64,000 nt of DNA, taken from positions 12,782 through 76,781 of IMG/VR virus record IMGVR_UViG_3300035670_000137. One strand, 5' to 3'. A model generated the notes under the pieces. That model did not search any database and was not told the DNA's origin. It saw only the letters and a program-made list of their open reading frames with translations. The position numbers were made by a program, and so were the translations under genes. Positions 21,148-50,802 of the stretch are shown here, piece after piece; within the stretch, counting starts at the first letter, position 1, and each line of letters starts with the position of its first letter. Source of the DNA: a virus.

Positions 21148-21464
21148 TGTCATACGTTACTATTAATAAACATGATGCTGGTATTCTGTTTAATACTGCG
21201 GAATTGGCTGCGTTGGCCGTATTTAATAAATATGAGCAAACGATTAAAGAATACTATGCTGATAGGATTACAACTAAAAAGATTCTGGGGATTAGCTTTA
21301 AGGTTGATAATTCTAGAATGCAGGACGAAATGTCAATAATTATTCCTAAATATAGGGTTAAAGAGACAATTGATAAGATTCGGCAATTGAATGCAATGCT
21401 TGAATACGCCGATGAAATGAATATTTCAACAAAAGACTGGGAAATTATTACTCGCTATATGTGA
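21147..21464 (+). CDS. Hypothetical protein
   Basis: Coupled ORF (TAATG overlap). Confidence 0.65.
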   Translation: MSYVTINKHDAGILFNTAELAALAVFNKYEQTIKEYYADRITTKKILGISFKVDNSRMQDEMSIIIPKYRVKETIDKIRQLNAMLEYADEMNISTKDWEIITRYM

Positions 21465-21491
21465 GCACTTACCAACCAAAAAGGTCTTTAG

Positions 21492-21531
21492 AATCAAGGG
21501 CTTAGCGGGGCCCTGGCCTAACCCCTTGATT
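21492..21531. promoter_or_regulatory. Inverted pair of IHF-consensus sites, copy 2
   Basis: AATCAAGGGCTTA-14 bp-TAACCCCTTGATT. Confidence 0.7.
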
Positions 21532-21732
21532 TATAAGGGGTTAGGCCAGAAACGCACCAACCTGGGGCGCGCCGATTTTACCACGGCCGGCGTGGAATGT
21601 CAATAGGCCGCGGCATCAAATGTTTTTATGGGCGCATAAAAATTACTTCGAAAAAATTTTTGCGAAAACGCTTGACAGCCTGGGGCAATGGGCGCATAAT
21701 ACGTTCATCAAATAACGAAAGGTAATAAACAA

Positions 21733-22206
21733 ATGTCAATTAAGCGTGTTCAGATTTACGATATGGATGGAACCATTGTGGATTCCACGCATCGTTATCG
21801 GACGATTTCGGAAAATGGAATCGAAAAGATTGATCTTGAATATTGGCGTGCTAATGAATATCGCGCAATGGATGATTCATTGCTTCCGCTTGCAGATCAA
21901 TATAAGGCTGATTTGGCTGATCCTGAATGCTATGTTATTATCGCAACTGCTCGCGTTCTGAATGAACCGGATATTAAATTCATTAATGAAATTCTCGGGA
22001 AACCGGATTATATTATTTCTCGGAAACCGGATAGCAGCATTTCCGGCGGTGTTTTAAAGGTTAATGGATTGCGTAAATTCTTTAATCTCAAGAATTTCAA
22101 AAATGCTGCGTTTGTGTTTTATGAGGATAATGCAGCATATCTGAAAAAGGTTTGCGATACTTTTAAAATCTCCGGTGTATATTGTCCGTCTAATCAGGGT
22201 CACTAA
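21733..22206 (+). CDS. HAD-superfamily phosphatase (possible nucleotidase, functional analogue of T5 Dmp)
   Basis: YDMDGTI motif I, ATAR motif II, FYEDN motif IV; pre-early location. Confidence 0.75.
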   Translation: MSIKRVQIYDMDGTIVDSTHRYRTISENGIEKIDLEYWRANEYRAMDDSLLPLADQYKADLADPECYVIIATARVLNEPDIKFINEILGKPDYIISRKPDSSISGGVLKVNGLRKFFNLKNFKNAAFVFYEDNAAYLKKVCDTFKISGVYCPSNQGH

Positions 22207-22210
22207 AATC

Positions 22211-22906
22211 ATGGCTAAAAAAGAATATTTCCTCATTGTTGATACTGAAACGACGGCGAATGATACTGTTTTCGATTTCGGTGCGGTTGTTTGTGATCGC
22301 AAGGGTAATATTGTGCAGAAATGCGCGATTATCGTAAAAGAGGAATTGGATAAAGATTTGTTCTTTGATCCGAAAGCGGAAGGCATTTGGTCGCGTCAAT
22401 ATGCGAATAAGAAAAAAGCCGGTTATCTGGAAATGATTAATAATGGTAATCGGATGGTCGCATCTGTTGCCGCTGTTAATCGTTGGCTTGAAAAGGTAGC
22501 GGCTAAATATAATCCGACTATTACCGCTTATAATTTCGCTTTTGATCGTGAGAAATGCGCGAAAACCGGAATTGATTTGTCGATGTTTAATTCTAGCTTC
22601 TGCCTTTGGCATTTGTCCTGCTCGATTTATGCTAAGACTAAGGCTTATCGGCAATTTATTCTCGATAATCATTATTTCGGTAATCGGACTAAATTCGGCA
22701 ATATGACTTACAAAACCAATGCCGAGGTTATGGCTCATTTTGTAACTGGTAATTATTCAGAAGAACCGCATACTGCAATTGAAGATGCTCAATATTATGA
22801 GCTTCCGATTCTGGTTTCTATTCTGAAAAAGAAAGGCTGGAAAAATAAAATTGGAACCGCTTATAATTGGAAAGATTACCAATTAAAAGATAATTTTAAG
22901 GCTTAA
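22211..22906 (+). CDS. DEDDh 3'-5' exonuclease
   Basis: VDTETT, AYNFAFD, HTAIEDA motifs. Confidence 0.85.
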   Translation: MAKKEYFLIVDTETTANDTVFDFGAVVCDRKGNIVQKCAIIVKEELDKDLFFDPKAEGIWSRQYANKKKAGYLEMINNGNRMVASVAAVNRWLEKVAAKYNPTITAYNFAFDREKCAKTGIDLSMFNSSFCLWHLSCSIYAKTKAYRQFILDNHYFGNRTKFGNMTYKTNAEVMAHFVTGNYSEEPHTAIEDAQYYELPILVSILKKKGWKNKIGTAYNWKDYQLKDNFKA

Positions 22907-34210: not shown

Positions 34211-34439
34211 AATCTATATGAAAACATACGAATATACTCTAACATACTTAAAAGCAAATAAAGAAAGAACTAGATATATTGCTGGTTCTGAGGGTAAATA
34301 TGTTCAGATAATGCAACATACCCTTGATGTAGTGGCGTACATATATGAAAAGCAACCTATAGATGTACTAAACGATTTTGCAGATGTTAAATTAGATAAA
34401 TAATGGCCGAGTGGTGAAATTGGTATACACAAGGGACTT

Positions 34440-35099
34440 AATTAAATTTGAGCACTAAGATAGGAATATTTTATGTGAATGTTGTCAAATTCGGTGAAAG
34501 CTAAGTCGAAAGATATGCTAATACCGAGCCAAGCTTGAGGTTGTATATGGGTTATGAAACTAAGTACGCTAACTGGAAAGAATTGGTAATTGAAGCTTCA
34601 CAAACTACTAATTCAGCTACAGAAGCAGCAGCTAAGTTAGATATTAAATACGATACTTATAAGAAGTATGCAATTAAGTATGGAGTATTTAAAACTAATC
34701 AAGCTGGTATAGGGGTTTCCAAACCTAAGCAGGATAATATAGGAAAAATACCGTTAATTGATATTTTGGAAGGAAAACACCCTCAATATCAGTCCAATAA
34801 ACTAAGGCTTCGACTACTGTCGGAAAAGGTATTTATACATAGATGCAGTGGTTGTGATCTAGAACTATGGTTGGGTAATCCAATACCATTAGAGCTAGAT
34901 CATATTGATGGTAATTCATCTAATCACCTATTAGAGAATTTAAGACTACTGTGCCCTAATTGTCATGCTCTAACCTCTACATATAGAGGTAGAAATAAAC
35001 TTCAAGAAGGTGTAGAGACTAGATGGCAACCATCCAGACCGGATGAAGGTATAGTCCAGACCACGAAATGAACAGTGTAGTGAAAACTATAGTGGTATG
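34440..35099 (+). mobile_element. Group I intron (tRNA-Leu type) carrying a homing endonuclease
   Basis: Core P AAATTCGGTGAAA, Q AATACCGAGCCAAG, R GTAGAGACTAGATGG, S AAGGTATAGTCC; terminal G; insertion after U34. Confidence 0.93.
34547..35071 (+). CDS. Intron-encoded HNH homing endonuclease
   Basis: CSGC...LELDHIDGNSSNH..ENLRLLCPNCH. Confidence 0.92.
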   Translation: MGYETKYANWKELVIEASQTTNSATEAAAKLDIKYDTYKKYAIKYGVFKTNQAGIGVSKPKQDNIGKIPLIDILEGKHPQYQSNKLRLRLLSEKVFIHRCSGCDLELWLGNPIPLELDHIDGNSSNHLLENLRLLCPNCHALTSTYRGRNKLQEGVETRWQPSRPDEGIVQTTK

Positions 35100-39268: not shown

Positions 39269-39625
39269 CTTGATTTTATTTTACATCAAGTGTATAATAT
39301 TATTTTAAGTGAGGAAAACATGGCAAAGGCTTATACTAAAGAGTTTTTGATTGATGTTTATATGCACAAGTATATCAAGTGTGGATTTATTCCTATTGAG
39401 GACTTGTGCAACCTCGAAGAATTAGCTATCAAATTCTACGATAAAGTGGGACGAGATGAATTCAGAAAATACGCAGATGTCACCCCAGAAAGAATCAAAG
39501 ACTATAACCTACAGGCTAGTGTATAGTGATGAATCTGAAGTGATTAAAACATTCGCTTCTGAAAAAGAAGCTGCATGGTTTATTCACAATGAAGGTGATC
39601 ATATAGTATATTGCAATAGAATTGT

Positions 39626-39701
39626 CGCAGGCTAGAGAAACGGCATCTCGCCACCCTCATAAGGTGGAGGTACCTGGTTCGACTCCAGGGCTCTGCAACC
39701 A
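39626..39701 (+). tRNA. tRNA-Met(CAU), initiator-like
   Basis: C1:A72 mismatch, anticodon CAT, CCA; acceptor stem slightly irregular. Confidence 0.8.
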
Positions 39702-39703
39702 AT

Positions 39704-39773
39704 AGAGATAGATCAGGGATCACTAGACTTTCATAAGGTTTACAGTTGGGATCGTTACCCAATGTCTCTACCA
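39704..39773 (+). ncRNA. Non-canonical short tRNA-like RNA, anticodon CAU
   Basis: AGAGATA/TGTCTCT acceptor + ACCA, minimal D arm GATC/GATC, loop TTCATAA, atypical T loop. Confidence 0.65.
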
Positions 39774-39781
39774 GTTTTTGT

Positions 39782-39857
39782 TGGCAAGTAGCTCAGAGGT
39801 AGTAGCGATGCGCTGTTAACGCATTGGTCGTAGGTTCGATCCCTACCTTGCCAGCCA
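39782..39857 (+). tRNA. tRNA-Asn(GUU)
   Basis: Cloverleaf, CCA. Confidence 0.93.
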
Positions 39858-39859
39858 CA

Positions 39860-40302
39860 GAACATAGGTGCCTCCGGCTATGTTGTCCATCCCTAGGACA
39901 TTATCCGCAACGTGGGCGAAAAATAGATATGTAGGCAGGGTTCATATCTATCCTTATTAAGAACTGCTGAGGGTCGTCGCCCAACAGTGAAAAGACTAGC
40001 AGAACATGAACTTTAGGGAGTTCTATAGCTATCCCATTCGCAAGAGTGGGTAAATTAAACCTGATCCTAAAGCGTGTCAGATTTCGTGTTCCCACACGAC
40101 AACAGACCTAATCAGGACACATCCGAACTAAGACGGTAGTACGGCCTCCGGGAAGAGTTGCTCATATGTAGCGTAAAAATTCTTAGTCAGGTTTAATTTA
40201 TAAGTGTGGCCCTACCCAAGGGGTGTGAGACAGTGGTTGGAAGGATCTCACTGCATCTAGGAGTCATCCGGTGACACGGAACCTAGTAAACCTACCACAC
40301 AG
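39860..40302 (+). ncRNA. Structured tract between tRNA genes
   Basis: No credible ORF; several hairpins. Confidence 0.45.
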
Positions 40303-40309
40303 GATTTTT

Positions 40310-40384
40310 GGGGGATTCGTATACTGGGTATTACTCCTGTTTTGCAAGCAGGAAAAAGCGGATCGTAACCGCTATCCTCCACCA
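40310..40384 (+). tRNA. tRNA-Ala(UGC)
   Basis: G3:U70, anticodon TGC, CCA. Confidence 0.9.
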
Positions 40385-40395
40385 TAGTTTTAAAT

Positions 40396-40479
40396 CGGAG
40401 TGTCGGCCAGCCTGGTAGGTCACTAGCTTTGGGAGCTAGCGCGAAAGCATCGCACGTTCGAATCGTGTCACTCCGACCA
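40396..40479 (+). tRNA. tRNA-Pro(UGG) with extra arm
   Basis: CGG acceptor start, anticodon TGG, variable hairpin GC-GAAA-GC, CCA. Confidence 0.9.
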
Positions 40480-40485
40480 ATCAAA

Positions 40486-40561
40486 CCCAACCAAACTAAT
40501 CTGGTGAAAGTGACGGTCTGAAAAGCCGTAAAGCGAGGATCGAAACCTCGGGTTGGGACCA
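40486..40561 (+). tRNA. tRNA-Phe(GAA)
   Basis: Cloverleaf, CCA. Confidence 0.88.
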
Positions 40562-40563
40562 AG

Positions 40564-40636
40564 TACGGTGTAGTATAAAGGCATTATGACGGTCTCCAAA
40601 ACCGCTGATGGGGGTTCGATTCCCTCCACCGTAGCC
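40564..40636 (+). tRNA. tRNA-Trp(CCA)
   Basis: Cloverleaf, CCA. Confidence 0.9.
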
Positions 40637-40704
40637 ATAAAAAATTTTGACTTGATTTATATTATCGAATAGCGTATAATATTACTTTAAGTCGCAGTTC
40701 TATT

Positions 40705-40924
40705 AAATAAATCAACTGCTGCGTAGTGAGAATTTAGGATGAGGCCTATAACCCCTCTACTTTATTCGCCAGGGTTACTTCATATACTATGAGCCGATAC
40801 TTCCTGCAATAGAAGGGGAAGAAAGGGGAAGAAAGTGACGAAGTCTCCACTACATATGTCCGTTAAGCTGCGTTCGTTATAGCGCGCAAAGAACCTTGCA
40901 CGACATTTCTCAGTTGATTTATTT
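40705..40924 (+). ncRNA. Y-RNA-like element 1
   Basis: 14-bp terminal stem, then CTGCG...TTACTTC...TTTCT-C motif; upstream of Ro60 gene. Confidence 0.7.
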
Positions 40925-41020
40925 AGTATTGCTGCGTATATAACAGTTACTTCATCTCCAAATAATGATGGAAGGCGTGATGGCCTCCAGTCTCTGTTAT
41001 AACCTTTTTCTCAATACTAA
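40923..41020 (+). ncRNA. Y-RNA-like element 2
   Basis: TTAGTATTG/CAATACTAA stem, CTGCG, inner stem TATAACAG/CTGTTATA, TTACTTC, TTTTTCT-C. Confidence 0.75.
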
Positions 41021-41024
41021 TCTT

Positions 41025-41099
41025 TTTTCGCTGCGTCTTATACAGTTACTTCAATCTATGGTGATTACAACAATACTGTATATAACTTTTCCTCGAAAA
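41025..41099 (+). ncRNA. Y-RNA-like element 3
   Basis: TTTTCG/CGAAAA stem, CTGCG, inner stem TATACAG/CTGTATA, TTACTTC, TTTTCCT-C. Confidence 0.72.
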
Positions 41100-41106
41100 T
41101 TCCAAA

Positions 41107-42660
41107 ATGACAAAACTAAATCCAAAAACACAAAACACTATTGAACACGCTATCTCGGCCAATGGCAATCTTCAGATTGCTAAAGATCAGGGACAGACGT
41201 TCTTTGAGACCCTTGTCGGACATATGTACGGCAAGGATCGTTTCTACACTAGCAATGAAGATGTTGCAAAGCGTTTGCTTTCCGATATCCAAGTCCTCGT
41301 TCGTAAGAATAAGTTGGACTATATTGCTAATGTAATTCTGTATGCTCGTGAAAAGGTTTTCATGCGGTCGATGCCTATTCTAGCTACAGTTTACTTTGCT
41401 AAGGCATTGCGCGATTCCAAAGTATCCTTTCCACAACTTCGTAATCTAGTTTCTTCGGTCATTCAACGAGCTGACCAGGTAACTGATATGTACGCTGTTG
41501 CCTTAGAGGTCTTTGGAGATAAGCGTAAAGTGCCCAATGCCATCAAGCGCGGTGTATCGGACGCCATGAATAAGTTTACCGTATATCACTACGGTAAATA
41601 TAACCGTGAAGCCGGTGTCACATTCAAAGATGTGGTGCGTATCGTACATCCAGAACCTCGCGATGACAACCAAAGTCAGACTTTCAAGATGATTCTTGAA
41701 AACAATCTGCCCGTGCCATATACGTGGGAAACTGAACTCTCCCGCAACGGTCAACTTCCGAAAGAAGTTCAAAAGACTAAGGCTCAGCTATGGGCCGAGC
41801 TCGTACAATCCGGCAAACTCGGATATATGGCATTACTTCGTAACCTTCGTAACATAGTTCAGTCAGGGGCTGACGTTATCGGTGAGGTGGCGAAACGGCT
41901 AGTCGATGCAGAACAAGTTCACATTTCTAAGCAGCTTCCCTTCTCCTACCTAAAGGCTCTAGACGCCGTTAAGGACGCCCCCGCAAAGCTGAAGTGGGCA
42001 GTAAGTGAGGCTCTTGATGTATCCTGTGCTAACGTACCTGCACTAGGAAAGAAAGTGTGGATCATTGTCGATGGTTCCGGCTCTATGTTGGGTTCCCATT
42101 ATGGACGCATGGGACGCAATGAGGCGCTAGGTGAGTGTCCTTTCCAGACCGCGGCTGTATTTTGTGCAGCCCTGGCTAAATCAAATCGTGATGCTAGTGA
42201 ACTAGCAGTTACCATCTTTAGCGACAACGCTCAGATGGTTGATCTGAACCCTCGTGATTCAGTATCCACAATGGTGGAGAACCTCACGAAGAAAGTTCAA
42301 GGTGGTGGAACTAATCTACAGGCAGCCTTGAATATGAAGTCACGGTTAGGTTTTGAGCCAGACACAGTTGTAATCCTCTCAGATATGGAAGTTAACCAAC
42401 TGTCAACTGGATCGTATGGTGGAGGCTATTCTTGGAATAGACAAGACAATACGATTGCAAACATCAGCAAGATGTTTGACAAGAACTGCTATAAAGTAGC
42501 AGTAAACCTAGCTAGCGGCGTTTCAACGCCGGTTCCAAAAGAGCATGGCTTTGTCCAACTAGCAGGGTTTAGCGAGCGAATCTTCGCCCTAATCCCAGAA
42601 TTGCGAAATAGTCGGACTACGGTTGAAACACTGTTCAGTCGACCATTTGCAGCAGTTTAA
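41107..42660 (+). CDS. Ro60/Rsr-family TROVE-domain RNA-binding protein with vWA domain
   Basis: DRFY, YARE..FMRSMP, QRAD, D..R..HP.P, PYTWET.LS, GYMALLRNLRN, LPF, VDGSGSM (MIDAS), GGGTN, ILSD. Confidence 0.93.
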   Translation: MTKLNPKTQNTIEHAISANGNLQIAKDQGQTFFETLVGHMYGKDRFYTSNEDVAKRLLSDIQVLVRKNKLDYIANVILYAREKVFMRSMPILATVYFAKALRDSKVSFPQLRNLVSSVIQRADQVTDMYAVALEVFGDKRKVPNAIKRGVSDAMNKFTVYHYGKYNREAGVTFKDVVRIVHPEPRDDNQSQTFKMILENNLPVPYTWETELSRNGQLPKEVQKTKAQLWAELVQSGKLGYMALLRNLRNIVQSGADVIGEVAKRLVDAEQVHISKQLPFSYLKALDAVKDAPAKLKWAVSEALDVSCANVPALGKKVWIIVDGSGSMLGSHYGRMGRNEALGECPFQTAAVFCAALAKSNRDASELAVTIFSDNAQMVDLNPRDSVSTMVENLTKKVQGGGTNLQAALNMKSRLGFEPDTVVILSDMEVNQLSTGSYGGGYSWNRQDNTIANISKMFDKNCYKVAVNLASGVSTPVPKEHGFVQLAGFSERIFALIPELRNSRTTVETLFSRPFAAV

Positions 42661-42757
42661 GATAAGGGCGCGTTAGCAATAACGTGCCCTTTTTCTTTCT
42701 TGATTTCATTCCTTATAAAGCGTATAATATCTTTATTGAGTGACATTTGGAAAGAAA

Positions 42758-43234
42758 ATGAACATATTCATTCTTGATGATGACGTAGAGCAGTCTGCCA
42801 AGTATCACTGCGATCAGCACGTTAATAAGATGATCCTAGAGGCAACGCAGATTATCTGTACAGTACGCACTTTAAAAGGTTGTAAGGATAGTCCATATAA
42901 GGCTACACATCCTAAGCATCCTTGCACTATTTGGGCAGGGTCTGCACTAGAGAATTATATTTATACACTAGACTACGCTTGTTACCTTAATGAAGAAGCA
43001 AAGCGTAGGTATAATAAGAAAGTTAACCATAAGTCTTATGACGTACTAATGGATCTAACTTTTCCTGACTTTGAACTAATTAACAGAACACCGTTTGCTA
43101 GAGCAATGCCGGAACAGTTTAAACGTATTCCTGATACTGTAGAAGCGTATCGTGAATATTACAAAACAAAAGAGTTTGCTACCTGGAAAACAGGCAAACC
43201 TAATTGGATAGCGGATATACGTACCGCCTCCTAG
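42758..43234 (+). CDS. Pyrimidine-dimer glycosylase/DenV-like family protein
   Basis: MNIFIL...AKYHCDQHV.KMILE..Q...YK.TH..HPCTIW...AMP...AYR.YY. Confidence 0.75.
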   Translation: MNIFILDDDVEQSAKYHCDQHVNKMILEATQIICTVRTLKGCKDSPYKATHPKHPCTIWAGSALENYIYTLDYACYLNEEAKRRYNKKVNHKSYDVLMDLTFPDFELINRTPFARAMPEQFKRIPDTVEAYREYYKTKEFATWKTGKPNWIADIRTAS

Positions 43235-43327
43235 GGCAAATATGACGTATCGACAGTAGTGTCCGAATAGCTACCACCCCTTCAGATGAAAAGTATCTGA
43301 CCAGACGCGGGTAACCTGGAAGAATTC

Positions 43328-43422
43328 GCTCCTTAGCACTGGTGTGCGGCGAACCCTTATAAAGTTCGGAGACTGGCTAGATGGGCTGGAACGGCTGAGA
43401 TCGAAACTCAGGAGGAGTACCA
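43328..43422 (+). ncRNA. Atypical tRNA-like gene, apparent UAU anticodon, long extra arm
   Basis: GCTCCTT acceptor, GCAC-TGGT-GTGC D arm, CGAAC-CCTTATAAA-GTTCG arm, CTGAG-ATCGAAA-CTCAG T arm, ACCA. Confidence 0.7.
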
Positions 43423-43795
43423 TGCAAACTGCATTTGTTGTAACTATGATAGCTAAAAGATCCAACTATCACTATGTACTAGGTGTATTCTCTAATGAGA
43501 CTTTAGCTATACTAGCTGGAAGTAGAGAAGAAAGAGTATACGAGGGTGAATTTCAGTATACAATAGATAAACTAGAGGTAGATAGGTATGCTAAATAAAC
43601 TAATGTTTAAGATAAAAGATCGTGAAGTTGAACTAACATATGATGAAGCTAAAGCATTGTGGAAGGACCTGGATCTGATTTTTGGTGTACGAGTACCTAA
43701 TATGCCGGTATATCCTCCGACTGTGATGCCAACGTACCCTCCGTACACTGGAGATCCTGTAAAACCTTTTGTAACATGGTGTATGTAAGATTAAT

Positions 43796-44907: not shown

Positions 44908-44983
44908 AGTACCGTGGCCTGAACGGTGAGGGAGCGGATTGCAAACCCGCAGTATGTCGGTTCGAGTCCGACCGGTACTTCCA
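44908..44983 (+). tRNA. tRNA-Cys(GCA)
   Basis: Cloverleaf, U73-CCA. Confidence 0.92.
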
Positions 44984-44989
44984 TAAATT

Positions 44990-45067
44990 GGCACGTTAGC
45001 ATAGATGGCCTAATGTACTTGCCTGTCACGCGAGAGATCATGGGTTCGAATCCCATACGTGTCGCCA
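44990..45067 (+). tRNA. tRNA-Asp(GUC)
   Basis: Cloverleaf, GCCA. Confidence 0.93.
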
Positions 45068-48847: not shown

Positions 48848-48849
48848 TA

Positions 48850-49156
48850 TTCGTTGATGGCAAAGTAAAAGTATTCAAGACGGGAGGGGCAGTGCCTCCC
48901 CTGGTCCACCAATAAGTAGCTATAAGAGTGACACAGTAGGGTATTAGCAGACGTCCTAGTACCTCTGGAGTAATCATAAACTTAGCTACTTATTAATGGG
49001 CCAGTAATAGATTCGATTGGGTATGAATAGCAATGCTGGAGAATCGTCAAGAAAGACGTAAAAATCACAATAATAAATGCAAACGATTCTACGTTCGCTC
49101 TAGCCGCTTGAGCTAGATAAGGTTTCGGGACTGTCCCTTATTACCAATACAGTCCC
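48850..49156 (+). ncRNA. ssrA: Permuted (two-piece) tmRNA; tag ANDSTFALAA
   Basis: Acceptor piece ends CTGGTCC-ACCA (48911); hairpin intervening segment; coding piece starts GGGCCAG (48998) giving G3:U70; tag GCAAACGATTCTACGTTCGCTCTAGCCGCTTGA at 49079-49111. Confidence 0.92.
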
Positions 49157-49887: not shown

Positions 49888-49901
49888 AACACATACAAAA
49901 T

Positions 49902-50008
49902 TATACGCTGCACTTATAAGAGATACTTCATAAGTTCGACTCTTATATCCGGGGCCACTATCCCGGATACGCCGTTGGTGGCATACTCTTATTACCTTTT
50001 CTCGTATA
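49902..50008 (+). ncRNA. Y-RNA-like element 4 with YrlA-type tRNA-mimic domain
   Basis: Same G-CTGC / ATACTTC / TTTTCT-C frame; contains T arm ATAAG-TTCGACT-CTTAT, loop-closed stem ATCCGGG/CCCGGAT and D-like hairpin GCC-GTTGGT-GGC. Confidence 0.78.
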
Positions 50009-50018
50009 TACCAAAATT

Positions 50019-50357
50019 ATGAAACTATATATCGCCGTATTAGATGAAGTACCAGACCATATGGTTCCTACACTAGTAGCTCACACTGTATTAGGTGCAA
50101 ATGAAGCCTTTAGATTTTATCCTGCGTATCAGGAATGGTTAAATACGTCTTTTAAGAAAGTAGTACTAAGAGTTAATCGTAAAGAGTTTCAAAAGATAAC
50201 GGAACTTGGTGGAGATAAAGTATATTTAGGGTATGAAAATACTACTCTAAATGCTATATACTCTTGTGCTATAGTACTACCAGGTACTCAGGCCAACGTA
50301 CTTAAATTTGCCAAAATGTGGAAACCTAAGTATGAAGACAATTTTCCTAGATATTGA
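50019..50357 (+). CDS. Peptidyl-tRNA hydrolase Pth2-like protein
   Basis: KLYIAV...LVAH...EWL...KKVVLRV pattern. Confidence 0.6.
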   Translation: MKLYIAVLDEVPDHMVPTLVAHTVLGANEAFRFYPAYQEWLNTSFKKVVLRVNRKEFQKITELGGDKVYLGYENTTLNAIYSCAIVLPGTQANVLKFAKMWKPKYEDNFPRY

Positions 50358-50802
50358 CGGCGTACTAAACAATACAGCTACTTACATATATAATAGACAA
50401 CAAAGCCCTAGTAAAAAGTATATAGGGTACAGCCATAGACATATGGATGAAGTAGACCCTAGGTTGCTAGGGTTAGTGCGATACATAGTAGATGAAACAG
50501 GCGCTAAGATAGTAATATCTTCTAGTTGGAGAATAATCCATACGCAGAATGAAATTGCACAAGTGTTTGCATATAATGGGTGGCTAGACGCTCCTATTAT
50601 AGATATGACTCCTAAGTCTATGGACGCTTTTAGAGGAAATGAGATAAAGGCTTGGTTAGATAGCGATGAGTACACTACTAAATACGCTATTTTAGATGAC
50701 GGAACAGACTTTTATGAGCATCAGCCCCTATTCCGTACAGATGCTACAGTAGGACTTACTTTTATAATAGCTCAGAAAGTAATAGAATTTCTCAATAATT
50801 AA
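50332..50802 (+). CDS. HAD phosphatase of the RNA-repair-associated (Swiss Army Knife) type
   Basis: IFLDIDGVLN, IVISSSWR, RG.EI..WL, YAILDD. Confidence 0.85.
   Translation: MKTIFLDIDGVLNNTATYIYNRQQSPSKKYIGYSHRHMDEVDPRLLGLVRYIVDETGAKIVISSSWRIIHTQNEIAQVFAYNGWLDAPIIDMTPKSMDAFRGNEIKAWLDSDEYTTKYAILDDGTDFYEHQPLFRTDATVGLTFIIAQKVIEFLNN

What the first reader, a model, noticed from the sequence alone, without database searches (positions are those of the whole stretch)
40705..42660. Phage Ro60/TROVE gene preceded by an array of three Y-RNA-like elements with one conserved binding frame but different cargo domains
Seen: after a promoter at 40652, three back-to-back stem-closed units (40705-40924, 40923-41020, 41025-41099) end 7 nt before the TROVE/vWA ATG. 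Each has a terminal stem ending in G, then CUGCG, an inner stem, UUACUUC, a variable insert (about 25-110 nt), the inner stem partner, a pyrimidine-rich internal-loop strand (UUUCU/UUCCU) and C. The terminal stems differ in sequence but keep pairing. Known: bacterial Ro60 (Rsr) binds Y RNAs via a terminal helix, and Y RNA genes lie next to rsr. Inference: a lytic T5-like phage builds several Ro60 RNPs, each tethering a different RNA module, possibly for RNA triage or as decoys against host anticodon nucleases. The CUGCG/UUUCU internal loop differs from the classical bulged-C GGUCCGA/UUGACU site, so this may be a distinct Y RNA class.
Basis: partly seen in the sequence, partly recalled or inferred. 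Interest (0 to 1): 0.92.

Follow-up and report, generated by a model that had tools for sequence, protein, structure and literature searches.

The report
Phage Ro60 gene with Y-RNA array
A T5-like phage from a subsurface metagenome carries a Ro60-type RNA-binding ring protein and four small partner RNAs with one shared protein-docking handle and different bodies: a clear new example of the known bacterial and phage Ro60/Y-RNA system, not a new RNA class.

Summary
Window 41107-42660 encodes a Ro60 ortholog with a TROVE domain and a vWA domain carrying a MIDAS motif. Its nearest solved structure is the Ro60 of Thermus phage phiLo.

Three stem-closed RNAs lie between a sigma-70-like promoter (40652-40680) and the ATG. 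All share one frame: terminal stem ending in G, CUGCG(U)A loop, inner helix, UUACUUC, payload, inner helix, YUUUYCUC, terminal stem.

- **Independent detection:** a covariance model built only from distant loci (Ro60 46% identical or less) finds units 2 and 3 and a fourth copy at 49901-50009. It finds nothing else in the 64 kb.
- **Association with Ro60:** across 240 Ro60 loci the frame gives 256 hits in 137 loci. All are on the Ro60 strand and none is inside the ORF.
- **Structure:** both helices covary strongly. Many hits enclose sub-threshold Rfam YrlA matches.

So this is not a distinct Y RNA class. It is the widespread bacterial and phage Y-RNA handle in CGUA form (published CGAA/GNCGAA bulge plus YUAY).

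Three things are particular here. No window copy carries the tRNA-like module. Payloads are swapped among relatives. The units sit in tRNA operons, and two of them end just before start codons that lack a Shine-Dalgarno sequence.

Expression and binding are untested. The scan has noted similar handle-sharing arrays on other phage DNA.

The parts
40652..40680 (+). Sigma-70-like promoter (TTGATT-17-TATAAT) for the Y-RNA/Ro60 unit
   Evidence: Consensus scan scores 10 of 12. A near-identical promoter precedes the next gene at 42700. The relatives L001 and L002 lack this 60-nt insert: there U1 abuts tRNA-Trp.
40705..40924 (+). Y-like RNA unit 1 (payload type A, about 220 nt). It has a 14-bp terminal stem, CUGCGUAG, a split inner helix with an inserted hairpin, GUUACUUC, a conserved payload of about 110 nt, then ACGAC-AUUUCUC.
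   Evidence: It aligns at 74% identity with the U1 of L001 and L002, with compensatory changes in several hairpins. L001 U1 is an R1 hit at 33.5 bits. The window copy itself is not detected by R1.
40923..41020 (+). Y-like RNA unit 2 (payload type B)
   Evidence: R1 gives 72 bits. The independent model R2 gives 61 bits, E 1e-13. The minimum-energy fold shows the frame, z -2.7. Its ortholog is L002 553-645.
41025..41099 (+). Y-like RNA unit 3 (payload type D, a short hairpin). It ends 7 nt before the Ro60 ATG, and no Shine-Dalgarno sequence lies between.
   Evidence: R1 gives 75 bits and R2 gives 47 bits, E 4.5e-10. The minimum-energy fold shows the frame, z -3.0. Orthologs are L001 2922-2993 and L002 767-836.
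41107..42660 (+). Ro60 ortholog (TROVE HEAT-repeat ring plus vWA domain with DxSxS..T..D MIDAS residues), 517 aa
   Evidence: Pfam TROVE scores 77 bits and VWA_2 38 bits. PHROG 850 'RNA-binding protein' scores 5e-46. The PDB hits are 9L5Y and 9KOP, the Thermus phage phiLo Ro60, at E 7e-16. D322, S324, S326, T402 and D426 are invariant in 22 homologs.
42664..42691 (+). Intrinsic-terminator-like hairpin with a T run, ending the unit
49901..50009 (+). Fourth Y-like RNA with the same frame (UAUACG / CUGCA / inner helix / AUACUUC / degenerate T-arm-like hairpin plus two hairpins / UUUUCUC / CGUAUA). It lies 14 nt after tRNA-Gly(GCC) and 9 nt before the ATG at 50019.
   Evidence: R1 gives 32 bits and R2 gives 37 bits, E 2.8e-7. 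The fold has z -2.7. Its ortholog in the complete relative G001 (108909-109016) directly precedes the HAD_SAK_2 gene. In the window, the downstream ORF 50308-50802 matches HAD_SAK_2, an RNA-repair-type phosphatase, at 4.7e-27.

Best explanation
The locus is a phage version of the bacterial Ro60/Y-RNA system. One promoter-to-terminator unit (40652-42691) would yield a transcript holding three Y RNAs and then the Ro60 mRNA. A fourth Y RNA sits further along the tRNA region, beside RNA-repair-type genes.

Each RNA is closed by its own 5'-3' stem. Next to that stem is a conserved asymmetric internal loop: 5' strand N-U-G-C-G-U/A-A, 3' strand G-M-Y-U-U-U-N-N-C-Y-C. An inner helix follows, then an invariant UACUUC. 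I take this constant module to be the handle that the phage Ro60 ring binds. It corresponds to the published stem-bulge-stem with its CGAA motif.

The variable body is the effector or tether module that differs from RNA to RNA. Here none is the tRNA-like YrlA body. The units are presumably cut out of the precursor by host tRNA- and RNA-processing enzymes and then assembled with Ro60. Each resulting particle would present a different body to host or phage factors, such as PNPase or other exoribonucleases, or RNA-repair enzymes.

**Shown:** the sequence frame, covarying helices, strict co-orientation and linkage with Ro60 genes, homology to YrlA-type units, and the identity of the protein family.

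**Inferred:** transcription, processing, Ro60 binding at the handle, and any effector.
For: **Protein.** TROVE plus vWA. The nearest solved structure is the phiLo phage Ro60.

**Frame detected independently of the window.** Model R2 holds no sequence from the window or its close relatives. It finds U2, U3 and the copy at 49901-50009 and nothing else in 64 kb.

**Linkage to Ro60**
- 317 hits were listed: 114 and 133 at E<=0.1, and 70 at E<=0.01. All are on the Ro60 strand.
- At E<=0.01 there are 256 hits in 137 of 240 loci: 134 upstream, 122 downstream, none inside the ORF. Arrays of 2-5 units occur in 70 loci.
- In the reverse test, 12 of 23 IMG/VR stretches found by motif alone have a same-strand TROVE gene within 1.6 kb. 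Four more lie on TROVE-bearing contigs. None has an opposite-strand TROVE gene.

**Structure.** 91% of cells are paired against 57% in shuffles. All 15 pairs show double changes. The covariation score is 0.85 against 0.20 for shuffles and 0.17 or less for slid partners.

**Same family as YrlA.** R1 units enclose Rfam YrlA matches in L008, L013, L049, L085, L129, L246, L252 and L253. The complete relative G001 carries a unit with this handle plus canonical T arm, acceptor-like hairpin and D arm.

**Literature**
- In Thermus phage phiLo, two Y-like RNAs lie upstream of the Ro60 gene. They bind the protein through a stem-bulge-stem holding CGAA at nt 10-13. Mutating CGAA lowers affinity 3- to 4-fold. 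Ternary complexes form with host PNPase (PMC12135203).
- M. smegmatis YrlA and YrlB lie upstream of rsr and are processed from one precursor. Y RNAs lie within 4 kb of Ro60 on the same strand in 254 bacteria and 22 phages (PMC4201824).
Against: - There is no RNA evidence of any kind. No RNA run holds the stretch.
- No Rfam family reaches even E<=10 on 40640-41106. YrlA has no hit at E<=0.1 anywhere in the window.
- None of the four units has the tRNA-like module that the 2014 paper found in at least one Y RNA of every species.
- The loop reads CGUA, CGUC or GCAC rather than CGAA.
- Residue-level register with S. Typhimurium YrlA is unresolved. Rfam's own alignment places the inner helix on its first helix, which leaves the terminal stem and UGCG loop outside the 114-nt model.
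- The covariation alignment was fitted to the model.
- The locus sets are not de-replicated.
Confidence: 0.8

Rival explanations
1. The units act mainly in cis, as a structured leader through which Ro60 controls its own translation and that of the gene after the fourth unit. They would not be free small RNAs.
For: - U3 ends 7 nt before the Ro60 ATG. The fourth unit ends 9 nt before the ATG at 50019. Neither gap holds a Shine-Dalgarno sequence.
- L001, L002 and the G001 HAD_SAK gene show the same tight junction.
- All units of the operon lie on the mRNA 5' of the ORF.
Against: - In 122 of 256 hits the units lie downstream of the Ro60 gene.
- Units also occur between tRNA genes. In G001 one lies between tRNA-Cys and tRNA-Asp.
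- In more distant loci the last unit is 60 nt or more from the start, and a normal GGAGG is present (L003).
- Each unit has its own closing stem.
- Known Y RNAs upstream of rsr are processed out of the precursor (PMC4201824).
- A cis role could still coexist with the trans role in this clade.
Confidence: 0.08
2. The units are part of the phage tRNA system, independent of Ro60. They would be degenerate or mimic tRNAs, or processing cassettes whose leader-trailer stems guide RNase cleavage within tRNA operons.
For: - They lie inside a cluster of 24 tRNA genes.
- L001 unit 2 holds a non-permuted tRNA-Arg(UCU)-like body whose acceptor stem is the inner helix. ARAGORN calls it and the Rfam tRNA model scores it 42 bits.
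- The fourth unit has a T-arm-like hairpin.
- In relatives the units directly abut tRNA genes.
Against: - ARAGORN and the Rfam tRNA model call nothing in 40638-41106.
- The frame tracks Ro60 genes in bacteria and phages, on the Ro60 strand only. In bacterial genome loci (Flavobacterium, Hymenobacter, Chitinophaga and others) most hits lie just downstream of the gene.
- The conserved loop motif is the one shown to matter for Ro60 binding in phage phiLo (PMC12135203).
Confidence: 0.07
3. The resemblance is a chance run of AT-rich hairpins upstream of the gene.
For: The region is AT-rich. The U1 fold is not more stable than shuffled sequence (z -1.0). The whole 417-nt leader has z -2.2.
Against: The independent model gives E-values of 1e-13 to 3e-7 with no other hit in 128 kb of searched strand. 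Orthologous arrays exist in L001 and L002 with compensatory stem changes.
Confidence: 0.01

Closest known systems
Thermus phage phiLo Ro60 with Yrl1 and Yrl2 (Nucleic Acids Res 2025, PMC12135203; PDB 9KOP, 9L5Y)
   Same: - A phage-encoded Ro60, and the best PDB sequence match to this protein (E 7e-16).
- Y-like RNAs lie directly upstream of the Ro60 gene on the same strand.
- There is a 5'-3' stem next to a bulge with a CGAA-type motif about 10-13 nt from the 5' end. Here CG(U)A lies at nt 11-14 of a unit with a 7-nt arm.
   Different: - Four RNAs here rather than two.
- The motif reads CGUA, CGUC or GCAC.
- An invariant UACUUC follows the inner helix.
- The locus is embedded in a tRNA operon of a T5-like phage.
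- Binding and PNPase recruitment are shown there and untested here.
Bacterial YrlA/YrlB (S. Typhimurium, M. smegmatis; Chen et al. 2014, PMC4201824; Rfam RF02553)
   Same: - The RNAs are encoded next to rsr on the same strand, with several Y RNAs per locus.
- In M. smegmatis both lie upstream of rsr and are cut from one precursor.
- A GNCGAAN0-1G-type motif lies near the 5' end, followed by YUAY.
- Units of the same covariance-model family in other loci carry the permuted T arm, acceptor hairpin and D arm, and are scored by RF02553.
   Different: - None of the window's four units has the tRNA-like module, so they are not YrlA. They resemble the less defined YrlB class (hairpin bodies, sometimes a T-arm-like element).
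- RF02553 gives no hit in the window.
- The terminal stem and UGCG loop lie outside the Rfam model.
Deinococcus radiodurans Rsr-Yrn1-PNPase (RYPER) complex
   Same: It supplies the working model used here: the Y RNA handle binds Ro60 and the other module tethers an effector nuclease.
   Different: No sequence similarity was detected, no PNPase gene was seen in the window, and the effector is unknown.
Metazoan Y RNAs (Rfam Y_RNA RF00019)
   Same: A modular stem-loop RNA whose 5'-3' stem region binds Ro60.
   Different: The classical bulged helix GGUCCGA/UUGACU is absent, and there is no Rfam hit at E<=10.
TROVE loci of Bacillus phage G and Caulobacter phage CcrColossus
   Same: - The same handle occurs in tandem arrays upstream of the TROVE gene. 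Phage G has 5 units plus 1 more. CcrColossus has 3 R1 units and 3 Rfam-YrlA matches.
- The phage G locus also lies among tRNA genes and a tmRNA.
   Different: These are jumbo phages. Their proteins are only about 24-30% identical to this one, and their payloads are unrelated.

Membership tests
Ro60 / Rsr protein family | TROVE (HEAT-repeat ring) domain above the Pfam cut-off | tested here: met
   PF05731 scores 77.3 bits against a cut-off of 23.
Ro60 / Rsr protein family | C-terminal vWA domain with MIDAS residues (DxSxS, T, D) | tested here: met
   VWA_2 scores 37.9 bits. D322, S324, S326, T402 and D426 are invariant across 22 homologs.
Ro60 / Rsr protein family | Ring-shaped fold that binds Y RNA on its outer surface | not tested
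   The only evidence is a sequence match to solved phage Ro60 structures 9L5Y and 9KOP (E 7e-16). No structure prediction was run.
Bacterial/phage Y RNA (Yrl) family | Encoded near a Ro60 gene on the same strand (within 4 kb in Chen et al. 2014) | tested here: met
   U1-U3 lie 7-400 nt upstream on the same strand. The fourth unit is 7.2 kb downstream, beyond that limit. Family-wide, all listed hits are co-oriented with Ro60.
Bacterial/phage Y RNA (Yrl) family | A 5'-3' stem flanking a bulge that holds the CGAA / GNCGAAN0-1G motif | tested here: inconclusive
   The stem and bulge are present and covary. The motif reads UGCGUAG in U1, UGCGUAU in U2, UGCGUCU in U3 and UGCACUU in the fourth unit. 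Family-wide it is CG(U 53, A 21 of 85)A. Alphaproteobacterial units read G(U/C)CGUAG. The published figures are not held, so the register could not be checked.
Bacterial/phage Y RNA (Yrl) family | Conserved YUAY after the first helices | tested here: met
   UUAC or AUAC is present in all four units. UACUUC is invariant in 85 of 85 aligned hits.
Bacterial/phage Y RNA (Yrl) family | Bound by Ro60, with accumulation that depends on Ro60 | not testable with these tools
   No RNA data and no binding data are available.
YrlA (Rfam RF02553) | Permuted tRNA-like module (T arm, acceptor-like hairpin, D arm) | tested here: not met
   There is no RF02553 hit at E<=10 in 39500-43500 or at E<=0.1 in the whole window. 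The relative G001 has such a unit between tRNA-Cys and tRNA-Asp. The window has only 6 nt at that site.
Metazoan Y RNA (RF00019) | Conserved bulged helix GGUCCGA/UUGACU | tested here: not met
   There is no hit at E<=10, and the motif is absent from the sequence.
T5-like phages (Demerecviridae) | Genome of about 110-120 kb, a large tRNA block, and T5-type structural and replication genes | tested here: inconclusive
   The window has 24 tRNA genes. The terminase is 49% identical to those of 113-kb Vibrio phages, with many Salmonella, Escherichia and Klebsiella phage hits. The complete relative is 111,992 bp. No phylogeny was made.

The most novel reading that the evidence does not exclude
In this phage clade the Y-RNA handle has a second job in cis. 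The last unit of the array and the stand-alone fourth unit end 7-10 nt before start codons that lack a Shine-Dalgarno sequence. Those start codons open the Ro60 gene and an RNA-repair gene block that includes a HAD 'Swiss-army-knife' phosphatase. Ro60 binding, or excision of the unit by tRNA-processing enzymes, would then set the translation of Ro60 and of the repair enzymes.

Under this reading the swappable payloads (types A to E, including an undescribed conserved 110-nt domain in unit 1) direct the particle to different host RNA-decay or repair factors as a counter-measure to RNA-targeting defence.
Probability: 0.12. Interest if true: 0.65.

Novelty: new member of a known kind. Interest (0 to 1): 0.45.

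Why it matters
Ro60/Y-RNA particles are well studied in animals, but in bacteria and phages their RNA partners are catalogued mainly through the tRNA-like YrlA model.

This locus, and the model built from it, show that one short handle marks many more partner RNAs than Rfam's YrlA model finds at its threshold. That model found nothing above its cut-off in the 20 bacterial loci scanned at that threshold, in the 151 genomes searched, or in the window. The handle consists of a stem, a UGCG(U/A)A loop, a helix and UACUUC.

These RNAs are commonly arranged in arrays with exchangeable bodies, often inside tRNA operons. This gives a practical way to annotate Y RNAs in phage and metagenome data. It also gives a compact experimental system: one protein and four small RNAs of 75-220 nt. 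That system could be used to ask what the different bodies recruit and why lytic phages carry an RNA quality-control particle next to tRNA, tmRNA and RNA-repair genes.

It does not change the current picture of what Ro60 and Y RNAs are.

Tried and rejected
- **Rfam.** A scan of 39500-43500 at E<=10 and of the whole window at E<=0.1 gave no Y_RNA or YrlA match to the units.
- **Megablast.** A search of the locus against 50,697 phage records found no match.
- The neighbourhoods of the closest protein homologs from Logan and ENA (P0001-P0008, 69-82% identical) could not be read. The close clade rests on only two other loci, L001 and L002.
- **RNA evidence.** No RNA holder was listed for the stretch.
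- **Unit 1.** Model R1 does not detect window U1 even with filters off. Its membership rests on orthology with L001 U1.
- **Unit 1 payload.** A pattern scan of IMG/VR for the conserved core of the U1 payload found only the L001 contig. The 110-nt domain could not be tested for covariation beyond three sequences.
- **Canonical YrlA examples.** I sought examples above Rfam's gathering score in 20 named bacterial Ro60 loci and in 151 genomes of one class. None reached 69 bits; the best was 51.5. The comparison with YrlA therefore rests on sub-threshold but significant matches. Locus L251 comes from an unpublished genome (G103).
- **Reviews not held.** Two reviews (PMC10870794, PMC6047535) were not held. 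I could not check what is in print about the number of Y RNAs per locus or the exact handle consensus.
- **Register with YrlA.** I considered three registers between this handle and the Rfam YrlA consensus. cmscan prefers inner helix = first Rfam helix. The published description of a CGAA bulge beside the 5'-3' stem fits the loop motif better. This is left unresolved.
- **Overlapping ORF.** The mechanical ORF at 40965-41144 (59 aa) overlaps U2, U3 and the Ro60 start. I did not pursue it, because it overlaps covarying helices and nothing supports it.
Full report
**What is there**

The window is part of a 76.8-kb IMG/VR virus record that CheckV rates 73% complete. It carries 24 tRNA genes, a permuted tmRNA, and portal, capsid, tail and terminase genes. 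The terminase is 49% identical to those of 113-kb Vibrio phages. It also has hundreds of Salmonella, Escherichia and Klebsiella phage matches. A relative with 76% identical Ro60 is a complete 111,992-bp contig. 'T5-like' is therefore plausible but not proven.

The ORF at 41107-42660 is a Ro60 ortholog:
- Pfam TROVE scores 77 bits and VWA_2 38 bits.
- PHROG 850 'RNA-binding protein' matches it.
- The MIDAS residues are invariant among 22 homologs.
- Its only sequence matches in the PDB are the Ro60 of Thermus phage phiLo, entries 9KOP and 9L5Y, at E 7e-16.

A TTGATT-17-TATAAT promoter-like site lies at 40652-40680, and a terminator-like hairpin lies at 42664-42691. Together they bracket a unit whose first 400 nt are non-coding.

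Units 2 and 3 have the full frame, and each folds into it as its minimum-energy structure, with z-scores of -2.7 and -3.0.

Unit 1 has the same ends: a 14-bp stem, CUGCGUAG, then ACGAC-AUUUCUC. It also has GUUACUUC, but a roughly 41-nt hairpin is inserted in its inner helix. The orthologous unit in L001 lacks this insert, and L002 has a shorter one.

The close relatives carry four units each. By payload the arrays read:
- window: A-B-D
- L002: A-B-C-D
- L001: A-E-C-D, where E is a non-permuted tRNA-Arg(UCU)-like body whose acceptor stem is the inner helix

So bodies are gained and lost while the frame stays.

**It is not chance, and it goes with Ro60**

Model R1 was built from 12 short units. 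It found units 2 and 3 and an unexpected fourth copy at 49901-50009.

To remove circularity I built R2 from 41 hits in loci whose Ro60 is 46% identical or less to this one, with no sequence from the window, L001 or L002. R2 finds unit 2 (61 bits, E 1e-13), unit 3 (47 bits, 4.5e-10) and the fourth copy (37 bits, 2.8e-7). It finds nothing else on either strand of the 64 kb.

I then searched 240 Ro60 loci fetched by protein similarity from metagenomes, IMG/VR and bacterial genomes. R1 listed 317 hits: 114 and 133 at E<=0.1, and 70 at E<=0.01. Every one is on the Ro60 strand. At E<=0.01:
- 256 hits fall in 137 loci.
- None is inside the ORF.
- 134 are upstream and 122 downstream.
- 70 loci hold arrays of 2-5 units.

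These sets are not de-replicated, and some contigs appear in two collections.

The reverse test also holds. An exact handle pattern scanned over IMG/VR returned 23 stretches. Twelve have a same-strand TROVE gene within 32-1566 nt. Four more lie on contigs already known to carry one. None has an opposite-strand TROVE gene.

On 85 aligned hits both helices covary:
- 91% of cells are paired, against 57% in shuffles and 35-52% with slid partners.
- All 15 pairs show double changes.
- The covariation score is 0.85, against 0.20 in shuffles.

One caveat applies: that alignment was fitted to the model.

The consensus reads as follows:
- terminal stem ending in G (76 of 82)
- N-U-G-C-G-(U53/A21)-A
- inner helix ending AGAG
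- (U/A)-UACUUC, with UACUUC invariant in 85 of 85
- payload
- CUCU...C
- G-(A/C)-Y-U-U-U-N-N-C-Y-C
- terminal stem

**What family it is**

Many units with this frame, in other loci, carry a T arm (GGUUCGA..), an acceptor-like hairpin and a D arm (UAGCUCAGUUGGUAGAGC) in the permuted order that defines YrlA. Rfam RF02553 scores them at E 1e-10 to 1e-3, below its strict 69-bit cut-off. The R1 hit encloses the Rfam hit by about 15-19 nt at the 5' side.

The complete relative G001 has such a unit with the window-type handle, wedged between tRNA-Cys and tRNA-Asp. The window has only 6 nt at that site.

Two phages reported in print to carry Y-like RNAs also have the handle. Bacillus phage G has five R1 units upstream of its TROVE gene and one more. 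CcrColossus has three, interleaved with three Rfam-YrlA matches.

The literature describes the same parts:
- Chen et al. 2014 report a GNCGAAN0-1G motif near the 5' end, thought to be the Rsr recognition site. They also report a conserved YUAY further in, and Y RNAs within 4 kb of Ro60 on the same strand in 254 bacteria and 22 phages. In M. smegmatis two Y RNAs upstream of rsr are cut from one precursor (PMC4201824).
- For Thermus phage phiLo, two Y-like RNAs upstream of the Ro60 gene were found through their CGAA motif. It sits in a bulge beside the 5'-3' stem at nt 10-13. They bind the protein, and CGAA point mutants bind 3- to 4-fold worse. They also form ternary complexes with host PNPase that slow it (PMC12135203).

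In the window's units, CG(U)A sits at nt 11-14 of a unit with a 7-nt arm, and UUAC follows the inner helix.

One point stays open. Rfam's own alignment puts the inner helix on its first helix and WUACUU on its AUGCUU. That leaves the terminal stem and UGCG loop outside the 114-nt model. The published figures are not held, so I could not fix the register against S. Typhimurium YrlA.

**What is particular to this locus**

1. None of the four window units has the tRNA-like module. They are Y RNAs of the less defined YrlB kind. Unit 1 carries a conserved multi-hairpin body of about 110 nt. I found this body only in this clade.
2. The units are embedded in tRNA operons. In L001 and L002, unit 1 starts 9-10 nt after tRNA-Trp with no room for a promoter, whereas the window has a 60-nt insert carrying one. 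The fourth unit starts 14 nt after tRNA-Gly(GCC). Maturation by the host tRNA-processing enzymes is therefore a natural inference.
3. The fourth unit and its G001 ortholog precede an RNA-repair-type gene. HAD_SAK_2 scores 4.7e-27, and in G001 it follows the unit directly. This echoes the known linkage of rsr with RNA-repair operons.
4. Unit 3 and the fourth unit end 7-9 nt before start codons without a Shine-Dalgarno sequence. The same holds in L001, L002 and G001. More distant loci have longer gaps and a normal GGAGG.

**How it most likely works**

*Shown.* The gene family, the RNA frame, its covariation, and its strict linkage and co-orientation with Ro60 genes.

*Inferred.*
- One transcript runs from 40687 or so to the terminator.
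- The three RNAs are excised.
- The Ro60 ring binds at the stem-loop-helix handle.
- The different bodies act as tethers or gates for different partners. Host PNPase is the precedent.

A cis role of the last unit in translation of Ro60 is possible in this clade. It cannot be the general function, because half of all units lie downstream of the gene. A purely tRNA-related role does not explain the Ro60 linkage in bacterial chromosomes.

**Verdict**

This is a real and well-formed example of a known system, with a useful by-product: a handle model that finds partner RNAs which Rfam's YrlA model does not reach at its threshold. Earlier notes of this scan describe similar handle-sharing RNA arrays beside Ro60-like genes in other phages. 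They agree with this reading, but I did not test them.

Noticed in passing
window 49901-50009 (+), with ORFs 50019-50357 and 50308-50802: A fourth Y-like RNA with the same handle lies 14 nt after tRNA-Gly(GCC) and 9 nt before a 112-aa ORF (phrog_5822, no Pfam match). That ORF overlaps a HAD_SAK_2 RNA-repair-type phosphatase gene. In the relative G001 the orthologous RNA directly precedes the HAD gene.
   Followed up: yes
G001 (contig of L001) 105551-105684 = L254 252-385; window 44983-44990: The complete relative carries a canonical YrlA-type unit (window-type handle plus T arm, acceptor hairpin and D arm) inserted between tRNA-Cys and tRNA-Asp. The window has only 6 nt between these two tRNA genes. 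This is a clean presence/absence difference.
   Followed up: yes
L001 2708-2819: Unit 2 of the relative's array holds a non-permuted tRNA-Arg(UCU)-like body. ARAGORN calls it, and the Rfam tRNA model scores it 42 bits. Its acceptor stem is the handle's inner helix, so the handle forms a paired leader and trailer around a tRNA-like RNA.
   Followed up: partly
window 48849-49111 (+): A permuted (two-piece) tmRNA scores 98 bits in Rfam RF04321. It also matches the betaproteobacterial tmRNA model at 66 bits, below that model's cut-off. This is a possible hint to the host group.
   Followed up: no
window 34430-34586 (+): A sub-threshold match to the group I intron model (37 bits against a cut-off of 50, E 7e-6) lies in the tRNA region.
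   Followed up: no
L003 1574-1825: A shortened match to bacterial RNase P RNA class A (60 bits, cut-off 100, E 8e-16) lies just upstream of a tRNA, a Y-like unit and a Ro60 gene on a metagenome contig.
   Followed up: no
G003 (contig of L086) 21425-22318: A second array of four handle-bearing units lies about 25 kb from the Ro60 gene of that phage contig. So these RNAs are not always next to the gene.
   Followed up: no
L014 67-2770 and L095 2501-5268: In two loci the Ro60 reading frame matches in two pieces separated by 1.1-1.3 kb. This suggests an insertion (intron, intein or mobile gene) or a split gene.
   Followed up: no
window 42758-43234 (+): The gene after the Ro60 terminator matches pyrimidine-dimer DNA glycosylase (Pyr_excise, 1.1e-5; phrog_624). 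It has its own copy of the TTGATT-17-TATAAT promoter at 42700-42728.
   Followed up: no
L005, L013 (1889-1963), L085 (2021-2094), L090: One short payload recurs in phages whose Ro60 proteins are only 39-46% identical to the window's. It reads UUACUUCACUUUUAAUGAAAC: a 4-bp hairpin with a pyrimidine-rich 7-nt loop. It recalls the 'long hairpin with small pyrimidine-rich loop' described for YrlB and Yrn2.
   Followed up: partly
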